The notes under the pieces are model-generated. The model was not told where the DNA came from, made no database searches, and saw only the letters and a list, made by a program, of their open reading frames with translations. A stretch of 64,000 nt of DNA, taken from the IMG/VR virus record IMGVR_UViG_3300047160_009708; one strand, written 5' to 3'. The position numbers and the translations under genes are program-made. Source of the stretch: an uncultured virus (IMG/VR IMGVR_UViG_3300047160_009708). Lineage: Duplodnaviria; Heunggongvirae; Uroviricota; Caudoviricetes. This document shows, one piece after another, positions 4,549 to 57,095 of the stretch; the first letter of the stretch is position 1, and every line of letters begins with the position of its first letter.

Positions 4549-5616
4549 TTAGTAGCGCATCCCGTCAACACGGGAGCCGGGCGCGTCGGGGACTTCCTGG
4601 GACGCATTCCCATTGTCCCCGTCGGGGATGCCCAGGTCGGCGTGCGACTCGCGGCACTTGACGTGGATGTACGCCTCGACCGTCTCCTCGACCCACTCGC
4701 GGTGGCTGTCGTACAGGCCCGCCGCGACCCTGGCGCACTTCACGGGATCGCGCGTGCCCGGCTTCTTGTCCTGATCGACGTCGGCCCGCAGGATCAGCGG
4801 CGGCTCCTGAATGAGCGCCTCGCTGACCACCACCTGCGTCAGTTGCGCGGGATGGCCAACCAGTTTCGCCCATCCCTTGCGATCCTTGACGTTGTGTACC
4901 GCGCACTCGTCGTTGAGCGCGTCGTTGGCATTGTTGACAACACCGGTCGCGTACTCTTGCCAGGGGTTCTTGCGCGGCGCGGGCGCGAGCGCCGGGGGCC
5001 TGGCGCTGGGCTGGCCGAACCGTGGAATCGGCAGCGCCGCCGCCGGGCTCTCGTCCCGCATGTCGATCAACTCCTCGGGCGTGTGCAGGCCGGTGACCAC
5101 CTCGGGGTCGATCATGCGCACCCCCTTGGAGATGCACCGCGCGCGGAGCATGGAGTCGGGGTGTCTCTGGTAGTTGGTCTTCAGCTTGGCGGGCCTGCCG
5201 TCGTACGAGCCGGTGAGCGCGACACCGTTGTCGCACAACTCCCTGAGCGTGACCGTGACCACCTTGCCGTTGGGGCAGAAGCGCGGGTGATGGAAAATGA
5301 CCTCGCACACTTCGCCGTCGGTCTGGACCCACTGGACCGTGCCGCCGCGCGCCTGGAAGCGCGCTTGCATCGCCGCCGACTTCATCGCGGGCTTGCCGTC
5401 GATGATATCGTAAATCCGCATCGCCTGGATGGGATGGAGCCCCTCGGCCTGGCAGAGCAGCATGAGCGTGAAGGCCGCTTCGGTGGTGCGGACATCCTTG
5501 AACAGACCCGACTTCGCGACCATTTCCGCCATGATCACGAGGTCGTTCAGGGTGTACGTGGGGGGCGGGACGGTTGCAATCTGCACCAACTCAGTGCTCT
5601 TGGGTTCGCTACTCAT
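4549..5616 (-). CDS. Phage single-strand annealing recombinase (RecT/Redbeta-like)
   Basis: MAEMVAKSGLF...GLHPIQAM..IIDGKPAM and PDSMLRARCISKGVRMIDPEVVTGLHTPEEL motifs; next to a Gam/gp157-like gene. Confidence 0.75.
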   Translation of the reverse strand: MSSEPKSTELVQIATVPPPTYTLNDLVIMAEMVAKSGLFKDVRTTEAAFTLMLLCQAEGLHPIQAMRIYDIIDGKPAMKSAAMQARFQARGGTVQWVQTDGEVCEVIFHHPRFCPNGKVVTVTLRELCDNGVALTGSYDGRPAKLKTNYQRHPDSMLRARCISKGVRMIDPEVVTGLHTPEELIDMRDESPAAALPIPRFGQPSARPPALAPAPRKNPWQEYATGVVNNANDALNDECAVHNVKDRKGWAKLVGHPAQLTQVVVSEALIQEPPLILRADVDQDKKPGTRDPVKCARVAAGLYDSHREWVEETVEAYIHVKCRESHADLGIPDGDNGNASQEVPDAPGSRVDGMRY

Positions 5617-6321: not shown

Positions 6322-7227
6322 TCACTTGGCAACCGGGAACGGTTCGTTGTCGGCTCGCCAGGTCAGGCCGCGATCGACCGGTTTCCCAGTGCGCCAGAGA
6401 TTCCACGCCTTGATCGCCAGCGCCGCCATGAGCGTGCGGTTAAGACGCGACCGCGACCGCGACTCGGTTTCGAGGCGGCGCCGCAGCGCATGGATCGGAT
6501 CGCCCTTGGCCAAGCCGGTGCCGTTGTCCAGCCGGTCGAAGAAGTCGTCGCGGGCCTTCTTGCTGATCTCGCCGCACAGGTAGTGGACCAGCCCGAACGT
6601 GGAATTTTTGAGGGGCTGCCACGTGAACGCGTTGACGGCCGTCGCCGACTCAATCAAGCCGGGCCGCTCATCGACCAACTTCTCGATCGTCGCGTGGTCG
6701 GGCCGCTCTTCCCAGCGGGGATGGAGCGCGCCCTTGCAGATCACGATCTCCCAGAGGAAGTTGACGATCCCCGAAAGGGTCGTCGCGTTCTTGTGACCAC
6801 CGATCGAGAGCACGTCGGACGCCATGCGCACGCGCCCCGTGTCCATCGTGCGGAACGTCTCGGTATCGACGCCCGCGATCATGACCGTCTCGAAGCAATG
6901 TTCGCTTTCGATGCAGGCCCATAGCCGGTGCTGGCCGTTCAGAAGCCGCCCCTGGCGGCTGATGATGATCGGCTCGCCGTTGAGCCGCCACTTGTTCGCC
7001 GCCATCGCCCGCATGTACCGCGCCTTCGTGGTCGGGCGCAGGTGCCGGTTCTTGTCGTTGCTACTCAAAAGTTCCTTGGCTAGCTCGGGCGTCACCATGA
7101 CGACCGCCGCCTTCAGGCCCTTGCCAAACTCCGTCCACTTGATCGCGGCGACCGTGGTGATCTCGCCGCTGAACTTCTTGATCCGAATCCTGGGTGTCTC
7201 CACTGCAATACTCATCGTGTGCCTCAT
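6322..7227 (-). CDS. ParB/Srx-like N-terminal domain protein (DGQHR-type)
   Basis: VTPELAKELL..NDKNR, WRLNGEPIII..GRLLNGQHRLWA, MDTGRVR. Confidence 0.8.
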   Translation of the reverse strand: MRHTMSIAVETPRIRIKKFSGEITTVAAIKWTEFGKGLKAAVVMVTPELAKELLSSNDKNRHLRPTTKARYMRAMAANKWRLNGEPIIISRQGRLLNGQHRLWACIESEHCFETVMIAGVDTETFRTMDTGRVRMASDVLSIGGHKNATTLSGIVNFLWEIVICKGALHPRWEERPDHATIEKLVDERPGLIESATAVNAFTWQPLKNSTFGLVHYLCGEISKKARDDFFDRLDNGTGLAKGDPIHALRRRLETESRSRSRLNRTLMAALAIKAWNLWRTGKPVDRGLTWRADNEPFPVAK

Positions 7228-8783: not shown

Positions 8784-9115
8784 TCAACTTCCAGACTGAA
8801 GCCGTAGAGCGCGACCGGCTGCACGATCGCGTGCGCGCTCTTGAACTCGTCGGCCCTCATCATCGTCAGGAACGACTCCAGATCGGTGCGCAGCGTGATG
8901 TTGCCGCGCGACATGAAGACGGCGAACTCGTCGTCGCTCATCGTGCTGTTCTGCCGTAGCGCGTCACTCAGCTTGACGAGCGCCTGATTCAAATTCTCAT
9001 TGATGATCGGAAACCTGGCCAGCGCGATCGCTTCCTCGTCGATCGCGAGCGTGACGTCGACGCGCTGAAACTTGTGGCGCAGCGTGATAATGACCATCGC
9101 CGTCATCCTCGACAT
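8780..9115 (-). CDS. Hypothetical protein
   Basis: 111-aa ORF overlapping the end of the glycosyltransferase gene. Confidence 0.6.
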   Translation of the reverse strand: MSRMTAMVIITLRHKFQRVDVTLAIDEEAIALARFPIINENLNQALVKLSDALRQNSTMSDDEFAVFMSRGNITLRTDLESFLTMMRADEFKSAHAIVQPVALYGFSLEVD

Positions 9116-9795
9116 AGCAGGCTGGCGCGGCTGTACGCTGAGTATATCTCAGGCAGCCCCAGTTGGCGAGCGATCCGAAATTCCGGGTCGGGCTGGCCTC
9201 GTGGAGCGCGGTGCTCGCTGGCGATGCCCGGCGTGCCCGGCATGCCCTTGCAACTGACATGAAAGCCGACCTCGCGATAGAGGATCGTGCCGCCACACCA
9301 CTCGCGCCAGAGCATCAGATCCATCGACGGACTGCCGCGCCGCGCGATCGCCGCGAGCACGGGGACAACCTCGCTCCGCAGTGCTGTTTGTCCCAGGCTG
9401 GCATGACTGGGATTCGCATACGCGCGCAAGGTTCTGAATCGCACATTAAGGAAGAGCGCCGGCACATTACCCACGAGCGGTGCTTGATCAAGTAGCGCGT
9501 CCATAACGTCCACGTAGTCTGGTGAATACCAATCATCATCCTCACAGATGATGATTTTATCACCTACTATGTGCGGTAAGGCAGCCAGGATATTGAGGCA
9601 ATAACTGTGCAGTCGCTCGCCGTGTTGCTGGTGTCGCCACACAATATCCTGACCGTGCGTGAACGAGTAGCCTCGGAAGTCTTCGCCGACGACTAACCAT
9701 TGCCAGGGCTCGTCGTACGTCTGAAGCTCAATCCAGCGTTCCAAGAGCGCGAAGGCTTCAGGGCGTCCCGTTGAGGCGGTCAGGATTGACAGAAT
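9103..9795 (-). CDS. Glycosyltransferase, GT-A/GT2-like
   Basis: LSILTASTGRPEAF, WLVVGED, IIICEDDDWYSPDYV (DxD), HASLGQTA; the frame opens at ATT 9795. Confidence 0.8.
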   Translation of the reverse strand: MLSILTASTGRPEAFALLERWIELQTYDEPWQWLVVGEDFRGYSFTHGQDIVWRHQQHGERLHSYCLNILAALPHIVGDKIIICEDDDWYSPDYVDVMDALLDQAPLVGNVPALFLNVRFRTLRAYANPSHASLGQTALRSEVVPVLAAIARRGSPSMDLMLWREWCGGTILYREVGFHVSCKGMPGTPGIASEHRAPRGQPDPEFRIARQLGLPEIYSAYSRASLLCRG

Positions 9796-9890
9796 GGCTC
9801 ACAGCTCCGATAATGCGGACCAACGCGAAGGTTCAGGGCCTCCGCGCGGTCCGACTCGCCACATCACCCGTCTTGTGCGAGACGCGCGTC

Positions 9891-10436
9891 ATGACTATTC
9901 CAAATCCTACCACAACCATTGAATACCGTGAGCTATCATGGGCGCCAGGATACTGCGTTGGTGCCGATGGATCGGTTTGGACACGAAAGAACAGTCGATG
10001 GGGGCTATCAAGTCAATGGAAGAAATTACGACCACACGTTTCGGCTAAAGGTCGTTATGGACGCGTCATTCTCATGATCGATAAAACCCAGACCGGTTGT
10101 CTGGTTCACCGCTTGATCCTTGAGGCGTTTCGAGGTCCGTGCCCAAAAGGAATGGAAGCCTGTCACAACGACGGCGATTCAACAAACAACGTGATCAATA
10201 ATTTGCGATGGGATACAACCAAGAACAATCATCTAGATAAGCAACGGCATGGCACCAGTTACCAAGGCGAGCGAAATCACTTCGCAAAACTTACGGTTAA
10301 ACAGGTAAAGAAAATTCGTCGCGTGCACGCGGCAGGCAAAACTAGCTCCAGGAAACTTGCGCAACAATTTAATATAAGCGATTCAAGTATTAGACACATT
10401 ATTAAACGTGATTCATGGAATCACGTTGCTGATTGA
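9891..10436 (+). CDS. HNH homing endonuclease (NUMOD4-like N-terminus, HNH, C-terminal HTH)
   Basis: GYCVGADGSV, VHRLILEAF.GPCP, CHNDGDSTNNVINNLRWDT..NN; lower GC; antisense to its neighbours. Confidence 0.9.
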   Translation: MTIPNPTTTIEYRELSWAPGYCVGADGSVWTRKNSRWGLSSQWKKLRPHVSAKGRYGRVILMIDKTQTGCLVHRLILEAFRGPCPKGMEACHNDGDSTNNVINNLRWDTTKNNHLDKQRHGTSYQGERNHFAKLTVKQVKKIRRVHAAGKTSSRKLAQQFNISDSSIRHIIKRDSWNHVAD

Positions 10437-11197
10437 GCCGGATGTGCCGCCCTCCACCGCGCCACGAACGCGTCGTACTGCGCCCGCACATCCACCGGCT
10501 CGTGAGCTTCCTTAACGCACACACAAGCAATGTCGCAACCCTCGCGTTCCATGCGGCGCTGCTCCAACCGTTCTCGCAGTTCCGACCACGGGCGCGGCGC
10601 TTCGGCGAGGTGAAGCAAAACGTCTCGATGGTATGCGTAAATTCCAACGTGTCGAAACGCTGTTGTGACTAACATAAACATATACGGCTGCATATCATAA
10701 TCAGTACGCGAGAACGAGCGTGCGACTCCCCAGCGGATCTTGTCCTTCGGATTGCCGAACATTTGCGCCCTCAATTTGACGATGTTCGGATCTTTTTTCT
10801 GCTTCGGCTTGATGTTAGTGCAGACCGTGGCAACGTCGTAGTTATAGTATTTGAGCCGATCGACCAAGAGATCAATATGTTCTGGATTGACCTCTGGCTG
10901 ATCAGCCTGGATATTGACAACGATGTCAAAGTCATTAAGATCGCGCGCGACCTCGGCACAGCGGTCCATCCCAGTCGGATGATTGCCGGTGATCCAGGGT
11001 GTCGCGCCAAACGCTTCGCATGCCGCGCGAAGCTCGTCATTCTCGGCGAACGCGATCACGAGCTTGTCAATTTTCTTCGCCTGCTTGGCCTGCTCCCAAA
11101 CGTGGCGAACGACTGGCCAGCCCGTCTCCGCGAGCAGTACCTTGCCCGGCAGCCGCTTCGAGCCCATACGCAGAGGGATGATGCCCAGAACCGCCAT
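10421..11197 (-). CDS. kdsB: CMP-Kdo synthetase-like cytidylyltransferase
   Basis: IIPLRMGSKRLPGKVL, TGMDRCAEV, IVVNIQADQP, DPNIVK, FRHVGIYAY and ERLEQRR match KdsB motifs. Confidence 0.85.
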   Translation of the reverse strand: MAVLGIIPLRMGSKRLPGKVLLAETGWPVVRHVWEQAKQAKKIDKLVIAFAENDELRAACEAFGATPWITGNHPTGMDRCAEVARDLNDFDIVVNIQADQPEVNPEHIDLLVDRLKYYNYDVATVCTNIKPKQKKDPNIVKLRAQMFGNPKDKIRWGVARSFSRTDYDMQPYMFMLVTTAFRHVGIYAYHRDVLLHLAEAPRPWSELRERLEQRRMEREGCDIACVCVKEAHEPVDVRAQYDAFVARWRAAHPAQSAT

Positions 11198-11206
11198 CGG
11201 TGTCCC

Positions 11207-11434
11207 CTAAAGCAACGGCGGCTTGTCGCGCCACGTGCCGTCGTGCTCGTGCGGCGTCAGCGGCGAGCAGACCGGATAGCGCGCCACGATGTGCATCGAA
11301 GCCACGTTGGCCACGTGCGTGCCGTTTTCGACAATCGGATCGCACCGGAACGTCGTGACCGCCTTGATGTCCATCGCGACGCCCTTGTAGGTGACGCTGA
11401 TCTCGTGCGGCGCGATGCCACGTTCGGAATACAT
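11207..11434 (-). CDS. Hypothetical protein
   Basis: 75-aa ORF with GAGGAG RBS. Confidence 0.5.
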   Translation of the reverse strand: MYSERGIAPHEISVTYKGVAMDIKAVTTFRCDPIVENGTHVANVASMHIVARYPVCSPLTPHEHDGTWRDKPPLL

Positions 11435-11517
11435 CAGTGGTTGCTCCTCAACGATGTACGGGTTATGCTATAAAGCGCGCGCGAATGGCTGCCCAAAGTC
11501 AAGAGGCAAGAATCGGA

Positions 11518-11760
11518 ATGGTAAACCACCCGCTGCCGTGGCATTTTACCGTCGGCGAGCATGGAATCGCCACCATCTGGGATGGATCAAGGCCGGTGGC
11601 ACACGCGGTCGCCATGATGTCGGACGCCGACGCCCATGACGCCCAAGCGATCTGTGAGGCAATCAACACATGTGGATTAACCCCAAGTACGCCCAAGAGC
11701 GAGAGCCCGAGCGTCCCCGTGAATCGCCTGTCGAGCAGGGGAAGTGCATTGCTGCCATGA
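11518..11760 (+). CDS. Hypothetical protein
   Basis: MVNHPLPWHF...AQAICEAINT, downstream of a TGcTATAAA extended -10 at 11466. Confidence 0.5.
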   Translation: MVNHPLPWHFTVGEHGIATIWDGSRPVAHAVAMMSDADAHDAQAICEAINTCGLTPSTPKSESPSVPVNRLSSRGSALLP

Positions 11761-11978
11761 AGCGGCTGGCGGGAAACCCAGGCCAGACTGACAAACAGCT
11801 ACGCGTGACCATCTGTGAATTCAACGGCCACCCCTACATCGGCCTGCGCGTGTGGTTCCAGCGTGACGACAACCAGTGGTTCCCGTCCAAACAAGGGTGT
11901 ACGATCCGCGTCGGCGAAATCGACGACATGATCGCCGCGCTTCAGAAAGCACGCGCGCGACTCGCGCCATCAGAATAA
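11670..11978 (+). CDS. PC4/YdbC-like single-stranded DNA-binding protein (start may be 11757)
   Basis: LRVTICEFNGHPYIGLRVWF....WFPSKQGCTIR..EIDDMIAAL is the PC4-fold signature. Confidence 0.85.
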   Translation: MWINPKYAQEREPERPRESPVEQGKCIAAMKRLAGNPGQTDKQLRVTICEFNGHPYIGLRVWFQRDDNQWFPSKQGCTIRVGEIDDMIAALQKARARLAPSE

Positions 11979-12004
11979 GGTTCTCATACTCAGGGCGTCT
12001 GCGA

Positions 12005-13256
12005 GCCGCAACTCTCGACAAATCGGCATGTGCGCTGGCCGCAACCCCCGGTACATCGCATCGCGGCAAGCCGCGACTCCGTTGAGCCACGTCTATCGAC
12101 AGCCGCAGCCCCTATCGATCACCCGCGAGGTCGATGCCGCGACTCCGTGGTGAGTGTGCCGCCCGGCTACCGTGGCCGTGGCCGCGACCCCTGGCCAACT
12201 GAACGTGTCGTCATGCCGCAGCCCCCCCCCACCTTCATCCCTACCTGACGCCGCGACTCCAGTAGATCGGGCCATCTCTTGCCGCGACTCTTCGATGTTA
12301 GCCCGATTCGCCGCGACTCTCATGCATCCGGTAGCGATCGCCGCAGCTCCAGACCAATCCCTCCCCTGCCGCGACTCCCTTGGGGAAAGGCCGCATCCCC
12401 TGAACGGTTGGATCATCGTTCGCCGCGACTCCATGTGCCGACGGGAGAGTGCGCCGCAACTCCAAGCAATCGATTCTCGGATCGCCGCGCCCTCCTTGAT
12501 TCGCTCGCGCCGCGCCTCCATTGGCAACGTGGTCGCCACAACCGCGACTCACTCGACGAACGATCGGCTGCCGCAGCCCCAAGGGCCAAGCCGAATGCGC
12601 CGCGATTCCTCGGGTTGCCGTGACTCCGCGACTCCGTTCGGACCAGTCGAACCATGCCGCGACCCCACTAGCGCGACGTAGCCGCGACTCCAAGGAAGCC
12701 AAGACATGAGCCGCAACACCTGACACCGACTTGCCGCGACCCTCTTTCTTGTGCCGCAAGCTCTGCGCGGTCGCCGCAACTCCGTAGCCCATAACCGCGC
12801 TTCTCGCTCGCTGCCGCAACGCACCTTGGACTTTGCCGCAAACCCCGCCAGGGCGGGCCGCAACTCCTGGTGGTGTTACTTCGTGCCGCAGCCCTCACTC
12901 ACCGATTTGCAGCAACTACCGCAACTCTATCCGTGGATGGGCGTCTGCCGCAGCCCGAGTTGGCGTCCACCGCGACTCTAAGCAAGCCAAGGCATGAGCC
13001 GCAACACCTGACACCGAACTTACCGCGACTCACTCGACGCTGCACCGATGGATTTGCCGCGACTCTTCGATGTTAGCCCGATTTGCCGCGACTCCAATAA
13101 AGCAGCAATCATGGTTCGCCGCGACTCCATGGGCTTATACTCGTTGCCGCGACTCTGGACACGGTTACCACGACCGCGACTCCGCTGATTCTGCCGCCCG
13201 CGACACCTTGGCCGCAAGCCGCGACCCTGACAGTGCTCCGGGAGAGCCGCAGCCGA
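12005..13256 (+). repeat. Non-coding array of about 45 co-oriented 10-11 bp motifs (GCCGCRRCYCC, most often GCCGCGACTC) with variable spacers
   Basis: Motif starts include 12005, 12038, 12070, 12102, 12136, 12181, 12215, 12250, 12281, 12310, 12340 ... 13056, 13085, 13118, 13146, 13173, 13218, 13246. Confidence 0.92.
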
Positions 13257-13444
13257 CATCGAGATGTCAAGGAGCTAAAGCGGGCCGTCGGCACGAAGCC
13301 GAATATCCACTATTCTTTATCACTTGTTAAAGTGACCGGTGTTCAGCAAGCGGTCGCCGGATGCCTGACCCGGACCGTTCTCGCTCTTGCGTTTAGCGGG
13401 AACGCAGTGGTGGGAGATCCACCTTACGTCGTGATTGTAGCAGT

Positions 13445-13678
13445 TCATTGAACGTGCTTCCAACACTTTCTCGACTGAATATAGCTAACGTAGCCTTGTG
13501 AGGTTCCGTACTTCTTGGCTGTCACACGTTGCCGCTCACAGCCTTTCAGCGCACGGATCTCTAGAATGTTCTCATTTGTGAGCTTTGCATTCCCATTGTC
13601 GCTTCCACGAGCCGTAAGACCCATCCGTGCAGCATGTTGATGGTTCTCAAGAATAGTGACCCACTCAAGGTTACTCAT
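13445..13678 (-). pseudogene. 3' part of an IS-interrupted gene (HNH C-half plus HTH tail)
   Basis: SNLEWVTILENHQHA...GSDNGNAKLT...KCWKHV resembles the tail of the HNH gene at 9891; begins exactly at the IS left end. Confidence 0.7.
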
Positions 13679-13744
13679 CAAATTTCTTCGCGGCGGAAAC
13701 CCCTGCCTTTAGGCATGGGCAGGAGCCGCGCTCCTTCTTGTACG

Positions 13745-13773
13745 TTGACTATAGGATCGAATGTTGCTACAAC
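13745..13773 (+). promoter_or_regulatory. tnpB promoter (TTGACT-17-TACAAC), probably giving a leaderless transcript
   Basis: The -10 box ends 6 nt before ATG 13780, and there is no RBS. Confidence 0.55.
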
Positions 13774-13779
13774 ACTTGC

Positions 13780-14925
13780 ATGAAACTGACGCTCCAGTTG
13801 CAACTGGTCCCCGCCGCCGAACAGAAGGCCGATCTTCTGGCCACGATGAAGCGATTCAACGAGGCCGCATCCTTTGCGGCCAAGGTTGGATTCGAAAACG
13901 GCGTCTTCGGACAGGTCACAATCCATAAACTGGCCTACCATGAGATGCGAGAAAAGTTTGGACTGTCGTCTCAGTTGGTGGTCAGGGCCATCGCCAAGGC
14001 CGTTGAGTGCTTTCAGCGCGACAAGACGAAATGTCCCGTCTTCAAGCCCCGGTCGGCCATCTGCTATGACCAGCGCGTGATGAGTTTCAAGGGACTGACA
14101 ACGGTCAGCTTGTGGGCACTCTCCGGTCGGCTCTTGATGCCGTTTGTCTGCGGTGAATACCAGCGGGCACGACAGAGCCGCATCAAGGGGCAGGCCGATC
14201 TCGTCTATCGGCAAGGCAGGTTCTATCTTCTCTGCACGATCGAGATGCCGGAAGGTGCTCCCATCAAACTGGCCGATGTGCTTGGCGTTGATCTGGGAAT
14301 CGTGAACATCGCCGTGGACTCGACAGGCAAAGTATTCAGCGGCGAGAACGTCGAGAAGGTCCGACGCCACTACGCCAAACGTAGGGCCGGTCTGAACCGT
14401 GTCGGCACCAAGAGTGCCAGGAGAAGACTCTGCAAGACTCGAAAGCGGGAGGCAAACTTCCGCCGCAATGAGAACCACCGGATCAGCAAGCAGATTGTCG
14501 CTAAAGCTAAGGCAACCGATTCCGCGATCGCCATTGAGGATCTCAATGGGATACGGAATCGGGTCACGGTTAAGCAGCCCCAGCGCAATCGACATTCCGG
14601 CTGGTCGTTCTTCCAGTTGCGTTCGTTCTTGACCTACAAGGCGACATTGGTCGGAATCCCGCTGGTCACGGTCGATGCTCGAAATAGCTCGCGGACGTGC
14701 TCCGTCTGCGGGCATTGCGAGAAGGCCAATCGAAAGAGCCAGTCTGAATTCCGATGTCGCCAATGTGGTTATTCCGCGAACGCGGATTTCAACGCGTCCC
14801 GGATTCTCCGGGCCAAGGGTGTTGTCAAGCTGGTCGTGAGACCACGGCAAGCAATTGCCGACCCAATGGTAGGGCTCGTTGACTCCGGGAGCGAAACCCG
14901 GACGAGAGTGCTTACAAGCCCCTAG
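13780..14925 (+). CDS. tnpB: RNA-guided endonuclease TnpB
   Basis: RuvC motifs VLGVDLG / IAIEDL / NADFNA are intact; Zn ribbon CSVCG...CRQCG; start MKLTLQLQL. Confidence 0.95.
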   Translation: MKLTLQLQLVPAAEQKADLLATMKRFNEAASFAAKVGFENGVFGQVTIHKLAYHEMREKFGLSSQLVVRAIAKAVECFQRDKTKCPVFKPRSAICYDQRVMSFKGLTTVSLWALSGRLLMPFVCGEYQRARQSRIKGQADLVYRQGRFYLLCTIEMPEGAPIKLADVLGVDLGIVNIAVDSTGKVFSGENVEKVRRHYAKRRAGLNRVGTKSARRRLCKTRKREANFRRNENHRISKQIVAKAKATDSAIAIEDLNGIRNRVTVKQPQRNRHSGWSFFQLRSFLTYKATLVGIPLVTVDARNSSRTCSVCGHCEKANRKSQSEFRCRQCGYSANADFNASRILRAKGVVKLVVRPRQAIADPMVGLVDSGSETRTRVLTSP

Positions 14926-14967
14926 CTTTAGCTATGGGGTACTTGACGCACGCGCTGCATTGATAGC
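14780..14967 (+). ncRNA. Predicted TnpB omegaRNA (right-end RNA); guide from about 14948; 5' boundary approximate
   Basis: By analogy to characterised TnpB elements, the scaffold overlaps the tnpB 3' end and right-end hairpin and the guide is the flanking DNA. Confidence 0.5.
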
Positions 14968-15067
14968 CGTCCTCGACCTTCTTCCAGCCCTTCTGGAGAC
15001 GCGAACCTTCGGACGTCGCATCACAGCTTGTGCAGTGAATAATTTGCGGAGGTTCTGCTGTACTCAT
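14948..15067 (-). pseudogene. 5' part of the IS-interrupted gene (CxxC...GW...CxxC zinc finger)
   Basis: MSTAEPPQIIHCTSCDATSEGSRLQKGWKKVEDGYQCSAC, exactly 40 codons up to the IS right end. Confidence 0.6.
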
Positions 15068-15094
15068 TGGTTTATACCCCGGCAGTTATAATCG

Positions 15095-16405
15095 TCAGAC
15101 TCCATAATATGTGTTCGACGCGAGGCTATCAAGGGTGTGGGCGAGCGACACGCGCGGGAACGCGTCGAGCCGACTGTTCGGCGTGGCATTGACGACCGTC
15201 AAGCCAGCGGATTCGAGGTACGGGCGCAGGCGTGTGAAGCGGTCGTTAAGGATGCGGTACGCGTCGTTATTACTGCGCACGCCCGCGTCGCCCTTGGTGG
15301 CTGAGTCGGCGTAAGGCTGCTCCTCGTTCATACGGAAATCACAGCCCAACAGGATCAACCTCCTGACGCCGAGAATGTACGCGGCCTTGATCATGGGAAA
15401 CATCACGGACCTTGCTCCAGCCACACCCGCATCGTCAGGTCGTTCCGGGTCCGCCCCTACATTGAACGTGGGTTCGGTCAGGAACATATCGGCGCGGAAT
15501 CGTGCGTTTCGTACGAAGTATGACGTGTTCGCGAACGCGCGTACAGGACCACTTCCAGGCACCTCACCGCGCACCCATTCGTAAGGTATGAGTTTTTGGG
15601 TCGCCAGCGATCGCCAGTGTGAGCCGGGAAAATCTGAGGGGTTATCAATACACATATAGATGTGAGGGTCGCTGTAAATCTCCGTGGCGTTGTTCACGGC
15701 GATCGTTAGTAATCCCGAACGGCGAATCGCTTCGAGATCCATATCCGCAAGCGATGGCCCTCGTCCCAGAAAAATCGCGGTTTGCCCGGCGTACAAGCTG
15801 CCGAAATTCCTTACCAGGAATTGCGCCGAGAGGAAAACGGGCAGCGCTGGCAAACGGGTCGCGCCGTTGAGATCATGTTCGTAGAGTCTAAGGTCGTCCT
15901 CGTCAGGGACCGGTTCAACCACCGAATCCCTGGTCGGCTCCTCGGCCAGCCAGCGCGGCGGATTATCCGGACATTTTTTGATGGCCCAGCGGATCATGGA
16001 GTTCACAGGACAGCCGCACAGACTGCACGCGTCGGCCTGGCGGTTGCGGTAATTGCAGGTGTCGCAGATAGCACGGCGCCGCTGCTGGCCCAGCGCGCTC
16101 GTGACCACAAAACCGGCCCCGGCATGCTTGGCGAAGTCGCGCATGAAGTTGAGCCCGCGCCGGTACAGCGATGGCAGCTTTGGGTCATTCCGCAGCGCTT
16201 CCGCAGCCGCAGCATGTTGCGCCCGCAGCGTCACCGCCTGCTGCGCCCAGCGCGTGAGCGTGAAGCAGCGCTGAGCGCTGGGAAAGTCAGGAATTTCGTT
16301 GCGGCAGAGCTTATACTGGTCGCCCGTCATGGGCCGCTCGAAACGCGGACAGTGCTGCATCTCGGTCGGACAGACACAAGGGTCACCACACGGATCACGA
16401 TTCAT
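15095..16405 (-). CDS. Cys-rich N-terminal domain fused to a DUF115/Maf-like (MptE-like) glycosyltransferase domain
   Basis: RRAICDTC...CSLCGC...KKCP..W, then TAIFLGRGPSL, LTIAVNNA, CIDNP, AAYILGVRRLILLGCDF, VVNATPNSRLDAFP; ATG 16405 overlaps the upstream gene end. Confidence 0.75.
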   Translation of the reverse strand: MNRDPCGDPCVCPTEMQHCPRFERPMTGDQYKLCRNEIPDFPSAQRCFTLTRWAQQAVTLRAQHAAAAEALRNDPKLPSLYRRGLNFMRDFAKHAGAGFVVTSALGQQRRRAICDTCNYRNRQADACSLCGCPVNSMIRWAIKKCPDNPPRWLAEEPTRDSVVEPVPDEDDLRLYEHDLNGATRLPALPVFLSAQFLVRNFGSLYAGQTAIFLGRGPSLADMDLEAIRRSGLLTIAVNNATEIYSDPHIYMCIDNPSDFPGSHWRSLATQKLIPYEWVRGEVPGSGPVRAFANTSYFVRNARFRADMFLTEPTFNVGADPERPDDAGVAGARSVMFPMIKAAYILGVRRLILLGCDFRMNEEQPYADSATKGDAGVRSNNDAYRILNDRFTRLRPYLESAGLTVVNATPNSRLDAFPRVSLAHTLDSLASNTYYGV

Positions 16406-18431
16406 CGGGCGCGCTCGTAATGACGGCTTGACATATCTCACTCGCACACTTACACGTCGAAAGGCTTGGTACGAAGTTAAACGGGAAAGCGACTGGCTGG
16501 CAGTCATACGGCCGTGATTGCTCGAACACGGCGAGCGCGGCTGGCCCCACGAGGTTGAGTTCCCAGCCAAAGCCGCCCCAGAACAGGGTCGCGGTCGCCG
16601 AGCCCTCGAAGCTGGCCCAGGTGCACGAGTCGGGAATGTGTTTGAGCCGGTAGACGCCGTTGAGCGCCTCGCAATCGCCCGCTAAACCCTGTACGGTGAC
16701 CGCCACGAACGCAGCAGCGCCAGGCGTGCAGTGCACGCACGAGTCAGGACCGCTATCGTGTGCCATGAGCGCTTTCGCTGGACCGGGGGTCGTCATGGTT
16801 AGAGTGCGCGTGCTGGACGTGCAACACACGGTCACACAGCAGGCAGCCTTGCCGGTATTGATCTGAATAACCTGGCTGTTGCGCAATTGCAACTGATAAA
16901 GCGTTTGGCATATTTGATGCCTGCCGGGATTTGTTGGTACCGAGATGGCGGGCGGTCCGCACAGACCGGTTCCGGCTGCCGCCGGACAGTCGCCCGCGAA
17001 GTGGTGTAGCTCCTCGGGCTCGGCATTCCACGGTAACGAGATCACACGCGTAGTCTGCTCCAGCGTCCCGCCAGCCTTGGTATGAAACGCCGTTGTACCA
17101 AAGGAGACGTAAGACTGATCGGCCACGCTAGAGACCGTTTCCGAACCCTCGGGAAACTCCGCGAACCGATAGGTAAACTCGATCTGGTCCAGATAGCCTT
17201 CCGGCTTGAATCCCACAATACCGTTGTACACACGGTCGTAGGCGATGTCGCTGATCCACCTCCAGTATTCCTCGGCGATCTCCAGCGCCAGGCCGCGCAG
17301 CGCCGTCTCATTGATGGGCGTGATCGTGCCGCCGCCCGCCGCGATCTGGGCAATGGCTGTGTCGCGAAACGCCTTTGTTCCATTAAACCCTTTCTGTTGT
17401 GTTGTAATGAACAGATTATTTGTAGGTACATCCGAGTCGGTGAGGTTGACTGTCTCGATCCAGTAGGGATTTTCCTGCCCGGTGCGCACACCGGTGCAGA
17501 CTTTAGTGGGAAACCTGATCTGGACCGCCTTGGGGATCACCGCGCTATAGATCGGGATGCCTGCGTTGAGCCCCGAGTAGTAGGGCGCGCCCATGTCGAA
17601 GACGCTGCCGCCCGCGCGGAGCGTGCGATCCCGAAACAGCGAGTCGTCCTGCTGTCGCACCTTGCGCGCCGTGTCGGTGCCCATGACCTGGATTGTACCG
17701 TCGTACCACTCCACGACCCGCATCGACACATTGAAGGCGCACGTGTCCAGCAAGAGCGCCGCTGAGTCGCCGGCCATCACGTTGAGCAGCGCGTCGGCCA
17801 TCAGGTACTCGGGTTCGATCATGTCGATCGTGAGTGGTTCATTGAGCGCGTTGCTGACCTGGCCGAACAGTGCGGTCCAACTCGTCCCGCCGTTGAGAAT
17901 GCCCAGAACAGGCAGCGGCTTGTATTGCCAGAAATAACGCTTTGAGACGAGCGGAATAATGAAAACGTTATTCACCAACGGCTGGCCGCTGGCGTCGGCA
18001 ATCTGAGCCAGCGGCACGGGCGGCAGCGCATACAGGGACAGCGTTAATGTCTCGCCGCCAGGGCTCCCCTGGCCGGACGTGGACGACCCCTGCGAGCGCT
18101 GGCCCGGTGAATCCATGTAGAGCGTGATCGGCGAGGTCGTGTCGCCATTGCTGCCCCACGTGTCCGCGCCGATGGCGTCAATATCGTCTTGCGTCGCGTG
18201 GAAGTAGCCGTACCCCCAGTTGACGGCACCACTCGGCCAGTAGAGGCGATTGAGTTCGATCGGTCGATCACGACGGTGGTGAATAAAATTCCCTAGCGGC
18301 GCCGCGTTGGGTCCAGTCCATGACCTTTGGAGCGAAAACTGCTCGACCTCGCGCGGGTCGATATTCTCGCGCACGTACCGGATCAAATCGCGCTCAGGCA
18401 GCGCCAACGGCTGTTTGTCGAGGAGCAGCAT
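16395..18431 (-). CDS. Putative tail-tip/adsorption protein, copy 2, with a Cys-rich C-terminus
   Basis: First ~500 aa clearly paralogous to 18731-21265 (FSLQRSWTGPNAAPLG, ELNRLYWPSGAVNWGYGYF, AYDRVYNGIV). Confidence 0.75.
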   Translation of the reverse strand: MLLLDKQPLALPERDLIRYVRENIDPREVEQFSLQRSWTGPNAAPLGNFIHHRRDRPIELNRLYWPSGAVNWGYGYFHATQDDIDAIGADTWGSNGDTTSPITLYMDSPGQRSQGSSTSGQGSPGGETLTLSLYALPPVPLAQIADASGQPLVNNVFIIPLVSKRYFWQYKPLPVLGILNGGTSWTALFGQVSNALNEPLTIDMIEPEYLMADALLNVMAGDSAALLLDTCAFNVSMRVVEWYDGTIQVMGTDTARKVRQQDDSLFRDRTLRAGGSVFDMGAPYYSGLNAGIPIYSAVIPKAVQIRFPTKVCTGVRTGQENPYWIETVNLTDSDVPTNNLFITTQQKGFNGTKAFRDTAIAQIAAGGGTITPINETALRGLALEIAEEYWRWISDIAYDRVYNGIVGFKPEGYLDQIEFTYRFAEFPEGSETVSSVADQSYVSFGTTAFHTKAGGTLEQTTRVISLPWNAEPEELHHFAGDCPAAAGTGLCGPPAISVPTNPGRHQICQTLYQLQLRNSQVIQINTGKAACCVTVCCTSSTRTLTMTTPGPAKALMAHDSGPDSCVHCTPGAAAFVAVTVQGLAGDCEALNGVYRLKHIPDSCTWASFEGSATATLFWGGFGWELNLVGPAALAVFEQSRPYDCQPVAFPFNFVPSLSTCKCASEICQAVITSAPDES

Positions 18432-22620: not shown

Positions 22621-23760
22621 TTAGTATTCGCCCAGGAGACCGGCTAACAAGGCCGCACTGTCCGCGTCGGCGCTCTCACTGCCGCCACCGCTTAAAACCG
22701 GCGCGTTCGTGTTGGTGCGCGTGATCGGCGGCGGTGGCGGCGGCACGCTCGGCGGCTTCGCGGCGCTTTGATAGAAGAATTGAGTGATCGTGTTGCCCGA
22801 CGGGATATCGAGCGCGTGACCACTGCCGATCAACGTGCCCGGCACGGACGGCTGGACGTAGGTCGGCGCCACAAACTGACTGGTTACAAGCGCTGCGTTT
22901 AGCACTGTCCAGACTGGTTGCGGGAACGTCACATTCGAGCCCATGATCAGGCGCTCGAACGTCGGTCCCGACCACGTTTGGCTCGTGAGGAAGACCGGAT
23001 CGCGCGGCGGATTGAGCGGTTGTGAGAATGTTGCGTTGGAACCGATCGCCGGAATGGGATTGACGACGCCCGACCACGTTTGGCTGGTCAGGAACGCGGG
23101 GTCGCGCGGCCTGATTACCGGCTGCGGGAATGTCGATTGCCAGGCGCTTAGACCAGTTGGCACGAACGTCGGCCCCGACCACGTTTGGCTCGTTAGGAAT
23201 TGCGCTGTTGGGACTGGCCAGATTGGTTGCGGATAGGTGACCGAACCGAGCGGGGTCGCCGACGTCAGAAAGACCGGCGCCGCGTAGCTCTGATAGAAGA
23301 ATTGATACGTTGGCCGACCGGCGCGCACGAGCGACGAATCCGACCCTCCCGAGATACCCGACGCGAACGGCACGAGATAAGTCGGGCCGGACCACGTTTG
23401 GCTCGTCAGGAATTTCGGGTCGCGCGGTGGATTGAGCGGCTGAGGATATTCCGCGCCCCACTTGCCGGGCGGTGCTGTCGAGACCGGCCAGTTCGGACTG
23501 GTGTAGCTTTGATAGAAGAATTGAGTGACTGTGTTGCCCGACGGAATATCGGACACCGACGACGCGGCGGGCGCCGTACCAGGACCGACCGGCCACTCGG
23601 CGGGAGCAACATGCGTCTGACTGAGCAGGAACTGGACGTCGCGCGGTGGGTTGCGCGGATCGGTCCAGATCGACGGCGTACGGTCGGACGTGACCGGTTC
23701 CTGAACGTAGTAAACCTGGATTGAAAATGTCTGAACCGAGAATGGTTTGTTGGCGAACAT
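22621..23760 (-). CDS. Pro/Ser/Thr-rich repeat protein
   Basis: Repeats of QPxxPPRDPxFLTSQTWSGP and DIPSGNTxTQFFYQS. Confidence 0.7.
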   Translation of the reverse strand: MFANKPFSVQTFSIQVYYVQEPVTSDRTPSIWTDPRNPPRDVQFLLSQTHVAPAEWPVGPGTAPAASSVSDIPSGNTVTQFFYQSYTSPNWPVSTAPPGKWGAEYPQPLNPPRDPKFLTSQTWSGPTYLVPFASGISGGSDSSLVRAGRPTYQFFYQSYAAPVFLTSATPLGSVTYPQPIWPVPTAQFLTSQTWSGPTFVPTGLSAWQSTFPQPVIRPRDPAFLTSQTWSGVVNPIPAIGSNATFSQPLNPPRDPVFLTSQTWSGPTFERLIMGSNVTFPQPVWTVLNAALVTSQFVAPTYVQPSVPGTLIGSGHALDIPSGNTITQFFYQSAAKPPSVPPPPPPITRTNTNAPVLSGGGSESADADSAALLAGLLGEY

Positions 23761-44477: not shown

Positions 44478-45023
44478 TTAGCCTATGGCTGCGGACCCGC
44501 GTGGAATACCGAGCACGTACGGCGCCCGAATCCCCCAGGAGCGCGTGTTGCGCGTGATCAGGTTGAGCCGGTCGATCTCTTCCTGCGTGTAGAACGAGTC
44601 GTAGGCGATACCCGCCGCCGCCGCTTCCGCGAACGGCAAAATGCCCATGCCGCTGCCAAGCGCCTTAAGCCATTGCTGCGCCTCCTGCGCCTCGGGCAAT
44701 GCCGCCGCGTCCGGGAATCGCCGGTGGTAGAGCCGATCGGCCGCGATCGAGCACACCATGTCCTTCAGGAATTCGGCACCGTTGCCGGTCAGGGCCGCCA
44801 AATCCTGTGGCGTGTACCGCTGCCCAGCAACGCAGGCCATCTCCACGATCCCCGACGCCGTGGCCAGCGCTGAGCGCAGATTGGGGTCGGTCTGTAAATC
44901 GATGCTCGTGCTCTGGCCGTTGTCGTCGCGCACGAGCCAGCCTTGCAGCCGCACGTCGAACCGGGCGATCATGTCGTTCGGCGTCGCGTACGGATTGAGC
45001 CCGCTAATCGAGGTTTGCGGCAT
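44478..45023 (-). CDS. Head-tail connector, Mu gp36/DUF1320-like
   Basis: YATPNDMIARF...ALATASGIV...RYTP...L.DMVCSIA...LY.RR...AQQWLKAL..G; directly after the major capsid gene. Confidence 0.8.
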   Translation of the reverse strand: MPQTSISGLNPYATPNDMIARFDVRLQGWLVRDDNGQSTSIDLQTDPNLRSALATASGIVEMACVAGQRYTPQDLAALTGNGAEFLKDMVCSIAADRLYHRRFPDAAALPEAQEAQQWLKALGSGMGILPFAEAAAAGIAYDSFYTQEEIDRLNLITRNTRSWGIRAPYVLGIPRGSAAIG

Positions 45024-49015: not shown

Positions 49016-49157
49016 GCGGCCGGTCGAAGTCGTCGAGGTCGTCCTCGATCACGATCTCGCCGCGCTTGACGCACGCCAAGAGATTGGCCAGGCAGCAGTC
49101 CATCTCCCGCCGTTCCATCTCGGTATACGCGCTTACGAGTGAGTCCTTGCGTTTCAT
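48945..49157 (-). CDS. Small protein coupled to the polyprotein stop; candidate partner of the zeta-like domain
   Basis: ATGA overlap at 49154-49157; acidic stretch IEDDLDDFD. Confidence 0.55.
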   Translation of the reverse strand: MKRKDSLVSAYTEMERREMDCCLANLLACVKRGEIVIEDDLDDFDRPPKRARSSGSGRRSNRPARPGPRQ

Positions 49158-56823: not shown

Positions 56824-57095
56824 CGCTCGTTCTCGCGCGCCATCTTCGCAATGATCTTCTCGACCGCCGCCAGTTGCTTCTTGCTCTCGGGCGTCGATGG
56901 CTGCGGGTCGGGATACTTCAGCTTCACACGCTTCTCACCGGCCGGACGCACGTCGCCACCCAAGAGCAGCGTGCGCAGCTCACCGATCGCCCGCTCGCGC
57001 GTGAACCCGAACAGCTTTTGGAGCGCGGTCACGTCGTCCTCGGTGAACTTGCCGTCAGGCTGCGCCTTGAGGAATTTCATGCCTTCTTGATCCAC
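56820..57095 (-). CDS. Small 'MDQE' protein, paralogous to the N-terminus of 57077-58225
   Basis: MDQEGMKF..QPDGKFTE....L.K.FG.TRERAI.EL.TL..GGDVR; overlaps the upstream gene by 19 nt. Confidence 0.75.
   Translation of the reverse strand: MDQEGMKFLKAQPDGKFTEDDVTALQKLFGFTRERAIGELRTLLLGGDVRPAGEKRVKLKYPDPQPSTPESKKQLAAVEKIIAKMARENER

What the first reader, a model, noticed from the sequence alone, without database searches (positions are those of the whole stretch)
12005..13256. 1.25 kb array of about 45 co-oriented GCCGCRRCYCC motifs spaced about two or three helical turns apart
Seen: the motifs all lie on one strand. Start-to-start distances fall mostly at 28-35 bp (33, 32, 32, 34, 34, 35, 31, 29, 30...) with a block at 19-23 bp (12710-12857). 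Spacers are mostly unique, and no reading frame is preserved. The array lies between a PC4-like SSB gene and the TnpB-interrupted HNH-like gene. The conserved core is too short for a CRISPR repeat and the copy number is far above usual iteron sets. Inference, in order of preference: (a) a helically phased protein-binding platform (origin, centromere-like or packaging region; a ParB-like gene is at 6322); (b) a decoy sponge for a host DNA-binding or restriction protein, since the common variant contains GACTC/GAGTC and CGCG; (c) a transcribed array processed into ~30-nt small RNAs with variable guides.
Basis: partly seen in the sequence, partly recalled or inferred. Interest (0 to 1): 0.82.

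Follow-up and report, generated by a model that had tools for sequence, protein, structure and literature searches.

The report
Orphan 42-copy short-motif array in phage
A soil phage, probably infecting planctomycete bacteria, carries a 1.25-kb gene-free stretch with about 42 same-direction copies of an 11-12-base motif separated by unrelated spacers; it most likely is a multi-site docking platform for a DNA-binding protein, but no relative, partner protein or transcript could be found to prove it.

Summary
The array is real. A position-weight scan finds 42 copies of (T)GCCGCRACYCC on the + strand between 12004 and 13228 and 0 on the other strand. At 12 bits or more there are 37 copies inside and only 3 in the other 62.7 kb. 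Core positions are 82% identical between copies, whereas flanks are 26%, the random level. It is therefore not a neutrally decayed minisatellite. Gaps are mostly 21-35 bp (median 29) with no 10.5-bp phasing (p=0.57). I found no coding signal, no unusual RNA folding and no Rfam match.

The element lies in a phage with a Mu-type portal, 26 bp after a PC4-like gene. On its other side is an HNH gene split by an IS605-type TnpB. The closest TnpB copies are in Isosphaeraceae (Planctomycetota) genomes, which hints at the host.

The locus is an orphan. No related phage, syntenic array, spacer match or binder was found in any collection searched. The motif is not enriched in five candidate host genomes.

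Best reading (about 0.4): an unphased multivalent binding-site array for a sequence-specific protein, acting by mass action (titration, loading or clustering), not as a phased filament. RNA-level, polar-signal and guide-array readings remain open.

The parts
12004..13256 (+). Array: 42 weight-matrix copies of (T)GCCGCRACYCC (last at 13217-13228), a few degenerate copies, and unrelated spacers of about 10-33 bp
11757..11978 (+). PC4-like ssDNA-binding protein gene. The database gene call starts at 11670 (102 aa). I prefer a start at 11757 (73 aa), in an ATGA overlap with the upstream ORF. Its stop lies 26 bp before the first motif copy
   Evidence: Pfam PF02229 E 9e-10 / 4e-10; sequence
11518..11760 (+). 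orfX, an 80-aa orphan ORF upstream of the PC4-like gene (inferred gene: GC3 phase signal and ATGA overlap)
   Evidence: no family; only 2 marginal hits among 1.84 billion representatives; Atlas recognition low (92)
11435..11517 (.). Divergent intergenic region between the - strand gene starting at 11434 and the + strand orfX/PC4 pair. It is the likely promoter region for a + strand transcript that would run into the array (inference)
   Evidence: no + strand terminator-like site in 11000-14000
13257..13444 (.). Right flank: a short AT-rich stretch (about 13290-13340) and a structured segment (fold z -2.3 to -3.4 in 200-nt windows starting at 13301 and 13401)
   Evidence: a sigma70-like match on the - strand at 13330-13302 is at chance level
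13445..13681 (-). C-terminal fragment of an HNH homing-endonuclease-like gene; its N-terminal fragment lies at about 14946-15051 (-)
   Evidence: phrog_59 E 2e-13
13738..14925 (+). TnpB (IS605-type, no TnpA) of the IS that splits the HNH gene. A recent accidental neighbour, not part of the array
   Evidence: PF07282, PF01385; closest copies 70-74% identical in Isosphaeraceae/Planctomycetota MAGs

Best explanation
The array is a multivalent set of DNA-binding sites. Each asymmetric 11-12-bp core is read independently by one sequence-specific protein, phage-encoded or host. The roughly 17-bp spacers are free to drift.

The sites are strictly co-oriented but not helically phased. I therefore think the array works by number and local concentration: titrating or loading a protein, or clustering genomes. 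The nearest parallels are iteron-type copy-control loci and centromere-like repeat blocks. It probably does not build a rigid phased nucleoprotein filament.

The array grows and shrinks by unequal recombination of one- to four-unit blocks. Selection keeps only the cores.

Shown: the motif, its strand bias, its restriction to this locus, conservation of the core alone, the lack of phasing, and internal block duplications.
For: - Within 12004-13228 there are 42 copies on + and 0 on -. At 12 bits or more there are 37 inside and 3 in the other 62.7 kb.
- Core pairwise identity is 0.82. The flanking 10-mers score 0.26 and 0.27, against a random value of 0.256. The cores are therefore under constraint and the spacers are not.
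- Information is confined to about 12 columns.
- Only 2 of 41 gaps are under 21 bp, and both lie in a local slip at 12598-12635. This fits a footprint-sized minimum spacing.
- Spacer composition is genome-like (GC 57.6%, skew -0.04). The C-richness comes from the motif alone.
- Recent block duplications are present. The AG-type cores (one search list) recur about every 60-315 bp by my reading of that list, as in arrays that turn over by unequal crossover.
- There is no coding-phase signal. The motif falls in all three phases, and the long ORFs across the array have no Pfam hit.
- There is no RNA-structure signal on either strand: z is -0.8 to +1.7 on + and -2.5 to +0.9 on -. Rfam gives no match.
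Against: - No binder is identified. The adjacent orfX is an orphan of uncertain reality. PC4-family proteins are, by recalled general knowledge, non-specific ssDNA binders.
- Pfam found no Rep, ParA/ParM/TubZ or canonical ParB in the proteins scanned. About 13 kb of the 77,229-bp contig lies outside the window.
- There is no DnaA-box cluster: 8 matches in the window against 5.7 expected, and none between 12000 and 13400.
- There is no helical phasing, unlike most iteron origins and parC-type centromeres.
- No relative exists to show conservation of the array.
- With no + strand terminator between the PC4-like gene and the array, transcription of the array is likely, so an RNA-level role is not excluded.
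Confidence: 0.4

Rival explanations
1. RNA-level element. The array is transcribed on the + strand as the tail of the orfX/PC4 transcript. It then acts as a long unstructured RNA carrying about 42 copies of UGCCGCRACYCC, either as a sponge or scaffold for an RNA-binding protein or as a substrate cut into units of about 29 nt.
For: - The array starts 26 bp after the PC4-like stop, and no + strand terminator-like site lies in 11000-14000.
- Strict single-strand orientation suits an RNA signal.
- Irregular spacing without DNA phasing suits RNA.
- Variation inside the core is almost all transitions (R/Y columns). That would keep pairing with a fixed partner through G-U pairs.
Against: - There is no fold signal and no Rfam family.
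- The spacers carry no compositional signature.
- No nuclease or RNA-binding partner is recognised nearby.
- A 1.25-kb untranslated tail would be exposed to Rho (recalled general knowledge).
- A transition bias is also what mutation alone gives.
Confidence: 0.2
2. Polar strand-specific signal read by a DNA-tracking machine or on single-stranded DNA. Candidates are a Chi-like recombination or nuclease-attenuation site, priming or nicking sites, a polar barrier to forks or translocases, or a DNA-entry pause region in the manner of the T5 repeat regions.
For: - All 42 copies are co-oriented, the hallmark of polar signals.
- The neighbours are an ssDNA-binding PC4-like protein, a RecT-like protein at 4549-5616 (phrog_561), and two HNH_3-type endonuclease genes flanking the array.
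- T5-like phages, which hold nearly all cultured-phage homologues of the PC4-like protein (605 records), have 1.2-kb untranslated repeat regions of unknown mechanism. In some these are split by an HNH insertion (passages of bioRxiv 10.1101/866236).
Against: - The 11-mer is not over-represented in five Isosphaeraceae/Planctomycetota genomes: 18-36 copies per 7.7-11.3 Mb against 12-31 for the reversed control, with no clusters. A host Chi or orienting motif should be enriched. The host assignment itself is only a lead.
- About 12 informative columns is long for Chi or primase sites (recalled sizes 3-8 nt).
- The T5 regions are mixtures of inverted repeats, palindromes and DnaA boxes. This array has no inverted repeat of 14 nt or more.
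Confidence: 0.1
3. Functionless satellite. A 29-31-bp tandem repeat arose by slippage and is decaying. The motif is merely the part that promotes further slippage or unequal exchange.
For: - Block duplications inside the array.
- The 28.9-bp quasi-period is no stronger than the gap distribution gives (permutation p=0.08).
- No partner, relative or transcript was found.
Against: - Neutral decay cannot leave 10 core columns at 82% identity while both flanks sit at the random 26%.
- Only 8 of 820 downstream-flank pairs and 7 of 820 upstream-flank pairs keep 7 or more of 10 matches, against about 3 expected.
- An 11-bp core is too short for gene conversion to maintain (recalled).
- The array is identical in contigs from several soil runs, so it is not visibly unstable.
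Confidence: 0.08

Closest known systems
Iteron arrays of plasmid and phage replicons, especially copy-control or titration loci (P1 incA, F incC, RK2 oriV; the 11/12-mers of Vibrio cholerae chromosome 2; the octamers of P4 ori/crr). All recalled, not checked here
   Same: Co-oriented direct repeats of a short asymmetric site with non-conserved spacers, read by one protein and acting by number of sites.
   Different: Here there are about 42 copies rather than roughly 5-14. The core is 11-12 bp rather than mostly 17-22. There is no phasing, no adjacent rep gene and no DnaA boxes.
Centromere-like repeat blocks (F sopC 12 x 43 bp, R1 parC 10 x 11 bp, pBtoxis tubC, EBV oriP family of repeats 20 x 30 bp). 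Recalled
   Same: Many copies of one protein site packed into 0.1-1 kb, with a unit near 30 bp in EBV FR.
   Different: In those blocks the whole unit is conserved or the sites abut in phase, and the sites are often palindromic. Partner genes (parA/parB, parM/parR, tubZ/tubR) lie beside them. None of this holds here.
Untranslated repeat regions of the T5 left terminal repeat (injection-stop region); passages of bioRxiv 10.1101/866236 read
   Same: A gene-free repeat region of about 1.2 kb in a phage, of unknown mechanism and prone to HNH gene insertion. The same phages carry PC4-like genes.
   Different: The T5 regions are nested direct and inverted repeats and palindromes with 8 DnaA boxes, conserved across 25 phages. 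This array is one motif in one orientation, with no inverted repeats and no known relative.
CRISPR arrays
   Same: Repeat-spacer layout, unique spacers of about 17-20 bp, single orientation.
   Different: The conserved repeat is only 11-12 bp and 82% identical. Unit length varies from 21 to 35 bp. No cas genes were found in the window. No spacer matches were found.
VIPR arrays of phages (bioRxiv 10.64898/2026.10.15.759431; abstract, introduction and methods section 17 read)
   Same: A phage-borne non-CRISPR repeat array proposed to make guide RNAs.
   Different: VIPR RNAs are tandem 5-bp GGYNN units with a Vipr protein. This array has an 11-12-bp core plus long unique spacers.

Membership tests
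CRISPR array | Near-identical repeats of about 23-50 bp | tested here: not met
   Information is confined to about 12 columns; core identity is 0.82.
CRISPR array | Adjacent cas genes or an RNA-guided effector that uses the array | tested here: not met
   No Cas family in the Pfam scans of the called proteins. TnpB belongs to an IS inserted in an HNH gene. By my reading, its 3' region shares only the 6-mer GACTCC with the motif.
CRISPR array | Spacers that match foreign or target DNA | tested here: inconclusive
   No match of 14 nt or more elsewhere in the window. Only chance-level hits in 121 Isosphaeraceae genomes (best E 1e-3 per genome) and in 50,697 phage records. Spacers of 17-22 nt give little power, and IMG/VR was not searched with spacers.
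Iteron-type replication origin | Co-oriented direct repeats bound by an initiator | tested here: inconclusive
   Co-orientation is met (42/0). Binding could not be tested.
Iteron-type replication origin | Helically phased spacing (about 11 or 22 bp) | tested here: not met
   p=0.57 against a jittered null.
Iteron-type replication origin | Adjacent initiator gene, AT-rich unwinding element, DnaA boxes | tested here: not met
   No Rep, helicase or primase family in the window. No DnaA-box cluster. There is a short AT-rich stretch at about 13290-13340. About 13 kb of the contig is unseen.
Plasmid/phage centromere (parS/parC/sopC/tubC) | Partition ATPase/GTPase and adaptor genes beside the repeats | tested here: not met
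   No ParA, ParM, TubZ or ParB family. The 6322-7227 protein is DGQHR-like by the Atlas structure search only and lies 5 kb away.
Neutral minisatellite / VNTR | Similarity spread over the whole unit; copy number varies between close relatives | tested here: not met
   Core 0.82 against flanks 0.26. TRF finds no array. Pieces are identical in contigs of three other runs, though no piece spans the whole array.
VIPR array | Tandem 5-bp GGYNN units | tested here: not met
   Units of 21-35 bp with a 12-bp core against the definition.
Host polar motif (Chi/KOPS-like) carried by a phage | Over-representation in the host chromosome | tested here: not met
   18-36 copies per genome against 12-31 for the reversed control in 5 candidate host genomes. 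Host identity is inferred from TnpB similarity only.
CsrB/RsmZ-type or ToxI-type repeat RNA | GGA motifs in hairpin loops, or full-unit 34-36-nt tandem repeats with a ToxN gene | tested here: not met
   No fold signal, no Rfam match, and no whole-unit similarity. GGA is not a conserved column on the - strand.

The most novel reading that the evidence does not exclude
The array is a repeat-spacer RNA locus of a kind not yet described. It would be co-transcribed with the orfX/PC4-like pair and cut at or beside each 11-12-nt handle into units of about 29 nt. Their variable segments of 17-20 nt would guide an unidentified phage or host effector against competing elements.
Probability: 0.05. Interest if true: 0.9.

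Novelty: new variant of a known kind. Interest (0 to 1): 0.55.

Why it matters
If it is a binding-site array, it would be one of the largest natural arrays of a single short protein site in a phage, and it would be unphased. That points to control by titration or clustering in a phage lineage with no cultured relative, possibly of Planctomycetota, whose phages are almost unknown. It would also supply a ready-made 12-bp operator and its unknown reader as a tool. If instead it is transcribed and processed, it would add a new repeat-spacer RNA system. At present it is a single unreplicated locus.

Tried and rejected
**Relatives**
- Single-protein scans of IMG/VR with the PC4-like protein, the 678-aa neighbour and the portal found none.
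- A portal alignment found 50 loci, all at 30% identity or less.
- The word-index search found only the window's own PC4 protein. The nearest portal is 37% identical over 51% of its length, on a 58,651-bp contig that I could not fetch.
- In 121 Isosphaeraceae genomes, 4 had matches, and only to the portal's C-terminal part.
- Five large, distantly related IMG/VR records (portal 26-30%) have no PF02229 and no comparable motif cluster. One apparent cluster, viewed, looked like chance.

**Same-motif arrays elsewhere**
- IMG/VR gave 7 loci, each with at most 7 copies of the 9-mer core, at 12- or 13-bp multiples where spacing was regular.
I printed motif spacing for 8 of the top-ranked loci. In 6 the runs are at multiples of 3; the other two show a few copies at 18-19 bp and 26 bp. 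The window's own record was not among them.
- In 121 Isosphaeraceae genomes, 5 had the triple pattern, only as whole-unit tandem repeats. The control pattern was as common.
- blastn against phages and plasmids gave nothing, or chance-level hits at E up to 10.

**Sequencing runs**
- No RNA holder is listed.
- Only contigs were available, so starts, ends and strand could not be read. The bin 12342-12675 had almost no cover in the four runs laid.
- Loose ends at 11876, 12826 and 13264 look like partial hits of other GC-rich organisms.

**Other ideas tested or considered**
- AP2-type binding by the HNH proteins: no AP2 hit, only weak C-terminal HTH matches with E 0.04-0.2.
- TnpB guide array: rejected. 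The IS is an insertion into the HNH gene and its RNA end lies on the far side.
- GC-skew origin signal: the cumulative minimum at 13-14 kb is largely the motif's own skew, and the AT skew switches elsewhere.
- The - strand promoter-like and terminator-like sites are at chance frequency.
- Earlier notes of this scan returned nothing for this window or its sequence. Three look-ups by words returned only findings from other genomes.
- Literature searches found no description of such an array. That is not proof that none exists.

Full report
**What is there**

Between 12004 and 13256 the + strand carries a dense run of one short motif.
- Regular-expression counts: the strict GCCGCRRCYCC occurs 18 times, all inside the region and all on +. 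CCGCRRCYC occurs 33 times inside out of 38 + strand matches in the 64-kb window, with 0 of 5 - strand matches inside. CCGCRRC occurs 38 times inside on +, and 0 of 48 - strand matches are inside.
- A 12-column weight matrix iterated on the region converges on 42 copies at 7 bits or more on + and 0 on -. At 12 bits or more there are 37 copies inside and 3 in the remaining 62.7 kb.
- The informative columns are T(weak)-G-C-C-G-C-R-A-C-Y-C-C. Columns further out carry no information.
- Tandem Repeats Finder sees no array, only two tiny slips. That already shows that the units are not alike as wholes.

**Spacing**

The 41 start-to-start gaps have median 29 and mean 29.6. Of these, 26 are 27-35 bp and 9 are 21-25 bp. 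The longer ones contain degenerate copies.

There is no helical phasing. The best Rayleigh R for periods of 9.5-11.5 bp is 0.28, against a mean of 0.29 for jittered gaps (p=0.57). A quasi-period of 28.9 bp (R=0.54) is no more than the gap distribution gives when the gaps are permuted (p=0.08).

**Core against spacer**

Pairwise identity over the ten core columns is 0.82. Over the ten bases after the motif it is 0.258, and over the ten before it 0.265. The random expectation from spacer composition is 0.256.

Only 8 (downstream) and 7 (upstream) of 820 flank pairs keep 7 or more of 10 matches, against about 3 expected. These trace to a few block duplications:
- 12279-12319 and 13054-13094, 98% alike
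- 12682-12729 and 12970-13017, 94% alike
- 12541-12558 identical to 13022-13039

The dinucleotide at core columns 5-6 is GA in 24 copies, AA in 10 and AG in 6, and never GG. By my reading of the list, the AG-type cores recur about every 60-315 bp, which suggests older multi-unit duplications.

Spacers have genome-like composition (GC 57.6%, GC skew -0.04). The strong C excess of the region comes from the motif.

The picture is an array that turns over by unequal exchange while only the cores are held. A neutrally decaying minisatellite cannot give this.

**Not coding, and no RNA fold**
- The copies fall in all three codon phases (18/14/10).
- The GC-by-phase plot is flat compared with the flanking genes.
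- The four long ORFs across the array have no Pfam hit at E up to 1.
- Fold z-scores of 200-nt windows across the array are -0.8 to +1.7 on + and -2.5 to +0.9 on -.
- Rfam finds nothing at E up to 1 in 9000-17000, and ARAGORN finds no tRNA in the window.
- There are no inverted repeats of 14 nt or more.

**Context**

The window is phage DNA:
- a Mu-type portal at 58207-60924
- Mu gp36-like at 44478-45023
- a 2469-aa polyvalent protein with ART-PolyVal and Zeta-toxin domains
- a RecT-like protein
- a D12 methyltransferase

The array sits between two long - strand gene blocks.

On its left is a PC4-domain gene (PF02229, E 9e-10). I re-read this stretch as a two-gene + strand unit: orfX at 11518-11760 (80 aa), whose stop overlaps in ATGA the start of a 73-aa PC4-like protein at 11757-11978. 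A divergent intergenic region lies at 11435-11517. This is an inference. The database's own call is a 102-aa protein starting at 11670.

The first motif copy starts 26 bp after the stop, and the consensus scan finds no + strand terminator in 11000-14000. Read-through into the array is therefore likely but not shown.

On the right there are about 190 bp with a short AT-rich stretch and some structure. Then comes the 3' end of an HNH gene on the - strand. This gene is split by an IS carrying only TnpB. A second, intact HNH_3 gene lies at 9771-10436. Both HNH proteins give only weak C-terminal HTH matches and no AP2.

The IS is an accidental neighbour. Its guide-RNA end is on the side away from the array.

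**The 'ParB-like' gene**

The protein at 6322-7227 has no Pfam or NCBIfam match and nothing in the PDB by sequence. It matches phrog_5931, of unknown function. In the Atlas it resembles DGQHR-domain phage proteins by structure, and one nearby cluster carries ParB_N in 14% of members. It is at most a distant member of that superfamily, and nothing ties it to the array.

**Host and population**

The closest TnpB copies (70-74% identity) are in Isosphaeraceae and other Planctomycetota MAGs. The nearest cultured-phage portal matches are Akkermansia phages at 28-29% over 18% of the protein. The host is thus perhaps a planctomycete; this is a lead, not a result.

Four soil runs hold short contigs identical to the window. 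In three of them (X2-X4) the listed pieces include pieces of the array, with one extra C at 12221 as the only difference. The DNA is therefore real and, as far as can be seen, invariant. No listed run is RNA.

**Tests of specific ideas**

1. Host polar motif or uptake-type motif. The 11-mer occurs 18-36 times in each of five candidate host genomes of 7.7-11.3 Mb. The reversed control occurs 12-31 times. No two copies lie close together. It is therefore not enriched, and it is not part of a CRISPR repeat in those five genomes.
2. Arrays in hosts. The triple-motif pattern occurs in 5 of 121 Isosphaeraceae genomes, only as whole-unit tandem repeats. The control pattern is equally frequent.
3. Spacer targets. 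There is no match of 14 nt or more elsewhere in the window on either strand, which is fewer than for control segments. Only chance-level hits appear in the 121 genomes (best E 1e-3 per genome) and in 50,697 phage records at E up to 10. Power is low for spacers of 17-22 nt.
4. Origin marks. DnaA-box matches with one mismatch or fewer number 8 in the window against 5.7 expected, with none in 12000-13400. No replication initiator was recognised.
5. Other arrays in the window. There are none; only coding repeats.

**Relatives**

None is usable.
- The PC4-like protein has only itself in the 5.8-billion-protein index, on a contig of 77,229 bp.
- orfX has two marginal hits (E about 3e-4) among 1.84 billion representatives.
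- The best portal relative is 37% identical, on a contig I could not fetch.
- IMG/VR relatives are 30% identical or less. The five largest I read through have neither a PC4 gene nor any comparable motif cluster.
- Same-motif pattern scans of IMG/VR and the metagenome collection gave mainly runs at multiples of 3, 12 or 13 bp, with no array of this kind.

Conservation of the array therefore cannot be judged.

**Reading**

The data require a reader that recognises about 12 asymmetric positions. It must tolerate any spacer and any rotational setting, and it must care about orientation or simply inherit it from duplication.

The simplest such reader is a sequence-specific protein bound at each core on duplex DNA. 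Without phasing, the array more likely acts by site number: titration or handcuffing of a regulator or initiator, loading, or clustering of genomes. A phased filament is less likely. I put this at about 0.4.

The alternatives:
- An RNA-level role on the + strand, about 0.2. The processed guide-array version takes about 0.05 of that.
- A polar signal for a tracking enzyme or for single-stranded DNA, about 0.1.
- A functionless satellite, under 0.1.
- The remainder is unassigned.

**Comparison with known systems**

Recalled unless a call is cited.
- Iteron copy-control loci and centromere-like repeat blocks work most like this. However, the defining features I could test are not met: phasing, partner genes, whole-unit conservation, DnaA boxes.
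- The untranslated repeat regions of T5 (passages read) share size, obscurity and HNH invasion, but are built of inverted repeats, palindromes and DnaA boxes.
- CRISPR and the recently described VIPR arrays (abstract, introduction and methods section 17 read) share only the idea of repeats with variable parts.

I file the array as a new variant of the binding-site-array kind, with the caveat that it rests on a single locus.

Noticed in passing
window 11518-11978: The PC4-like gene may be shorter than the database call (start at 11757, not 11670) and translationally coupled by an ATGA overlap to an upstream 80-aa orphan ORF. The 65-aa - strand ORF at 11499-11696 looks spurious.
   Followed up: partly
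window 13682-14945: A TnpB-only IS605-type element is inserted into a small HNH gene (fragments at 13445-13681 and about 14946-15051, - strand). TnpB is 70-74% identical to copies in Isosphaeraceae/Planctomycetota MAGs, the only host clue found.
   Followed up: partly
window 9103-11197, 15095-16570, 27111-29678: A sugar-related gene set in a phage: a cytidylyltransferase (CMP-sugar synthetase type), a weak GT2-like protein, an MptE-like/sialyltransferase-like protein, and an 855-aa protein with BNR sialidase-like repeats. It may decorate or digest nonulosonic-acid glycans.
   Followed up: no
window 49154-56563: A 2469-aa polyvalent protein with an N-terminal ART-PolyVal domain and a C-terminal Zeta-toxin/AAA_33 kinase-like domain, followed at 57077-58225 by a protein with a weak LPD1 match. 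It is probably a virion-delivered multi-enzyme protein.
   Followed up: no
window 6322-7227: A phrog_5931 protein with DGQHR/DndB-like predicted structure. It is common in actinophages and vibriophages (87 phage records by tblastn) and has no known function.
   Followed up: partly
window 22970-23395: Four in-frame copies of a 14-mer at multiples of 3 inside the 379-aa gene at 22621-23760 (a coding repeat).
   Followed up: no
window 13301-13500: The segment between the array and the HNH stop folds better than shuffles on both strands (z -2.3 to -3.4 in 200-nt windows). It may be a terminator region for the late - strand genes.
   Followed up: partly
window 11953-11967: A perfect GC palindrome containing a near-copy of the motif core (CGCGACTC) lies inside the last codons of the PC4-like gene, at the left edge of the array.
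   Followed up: no
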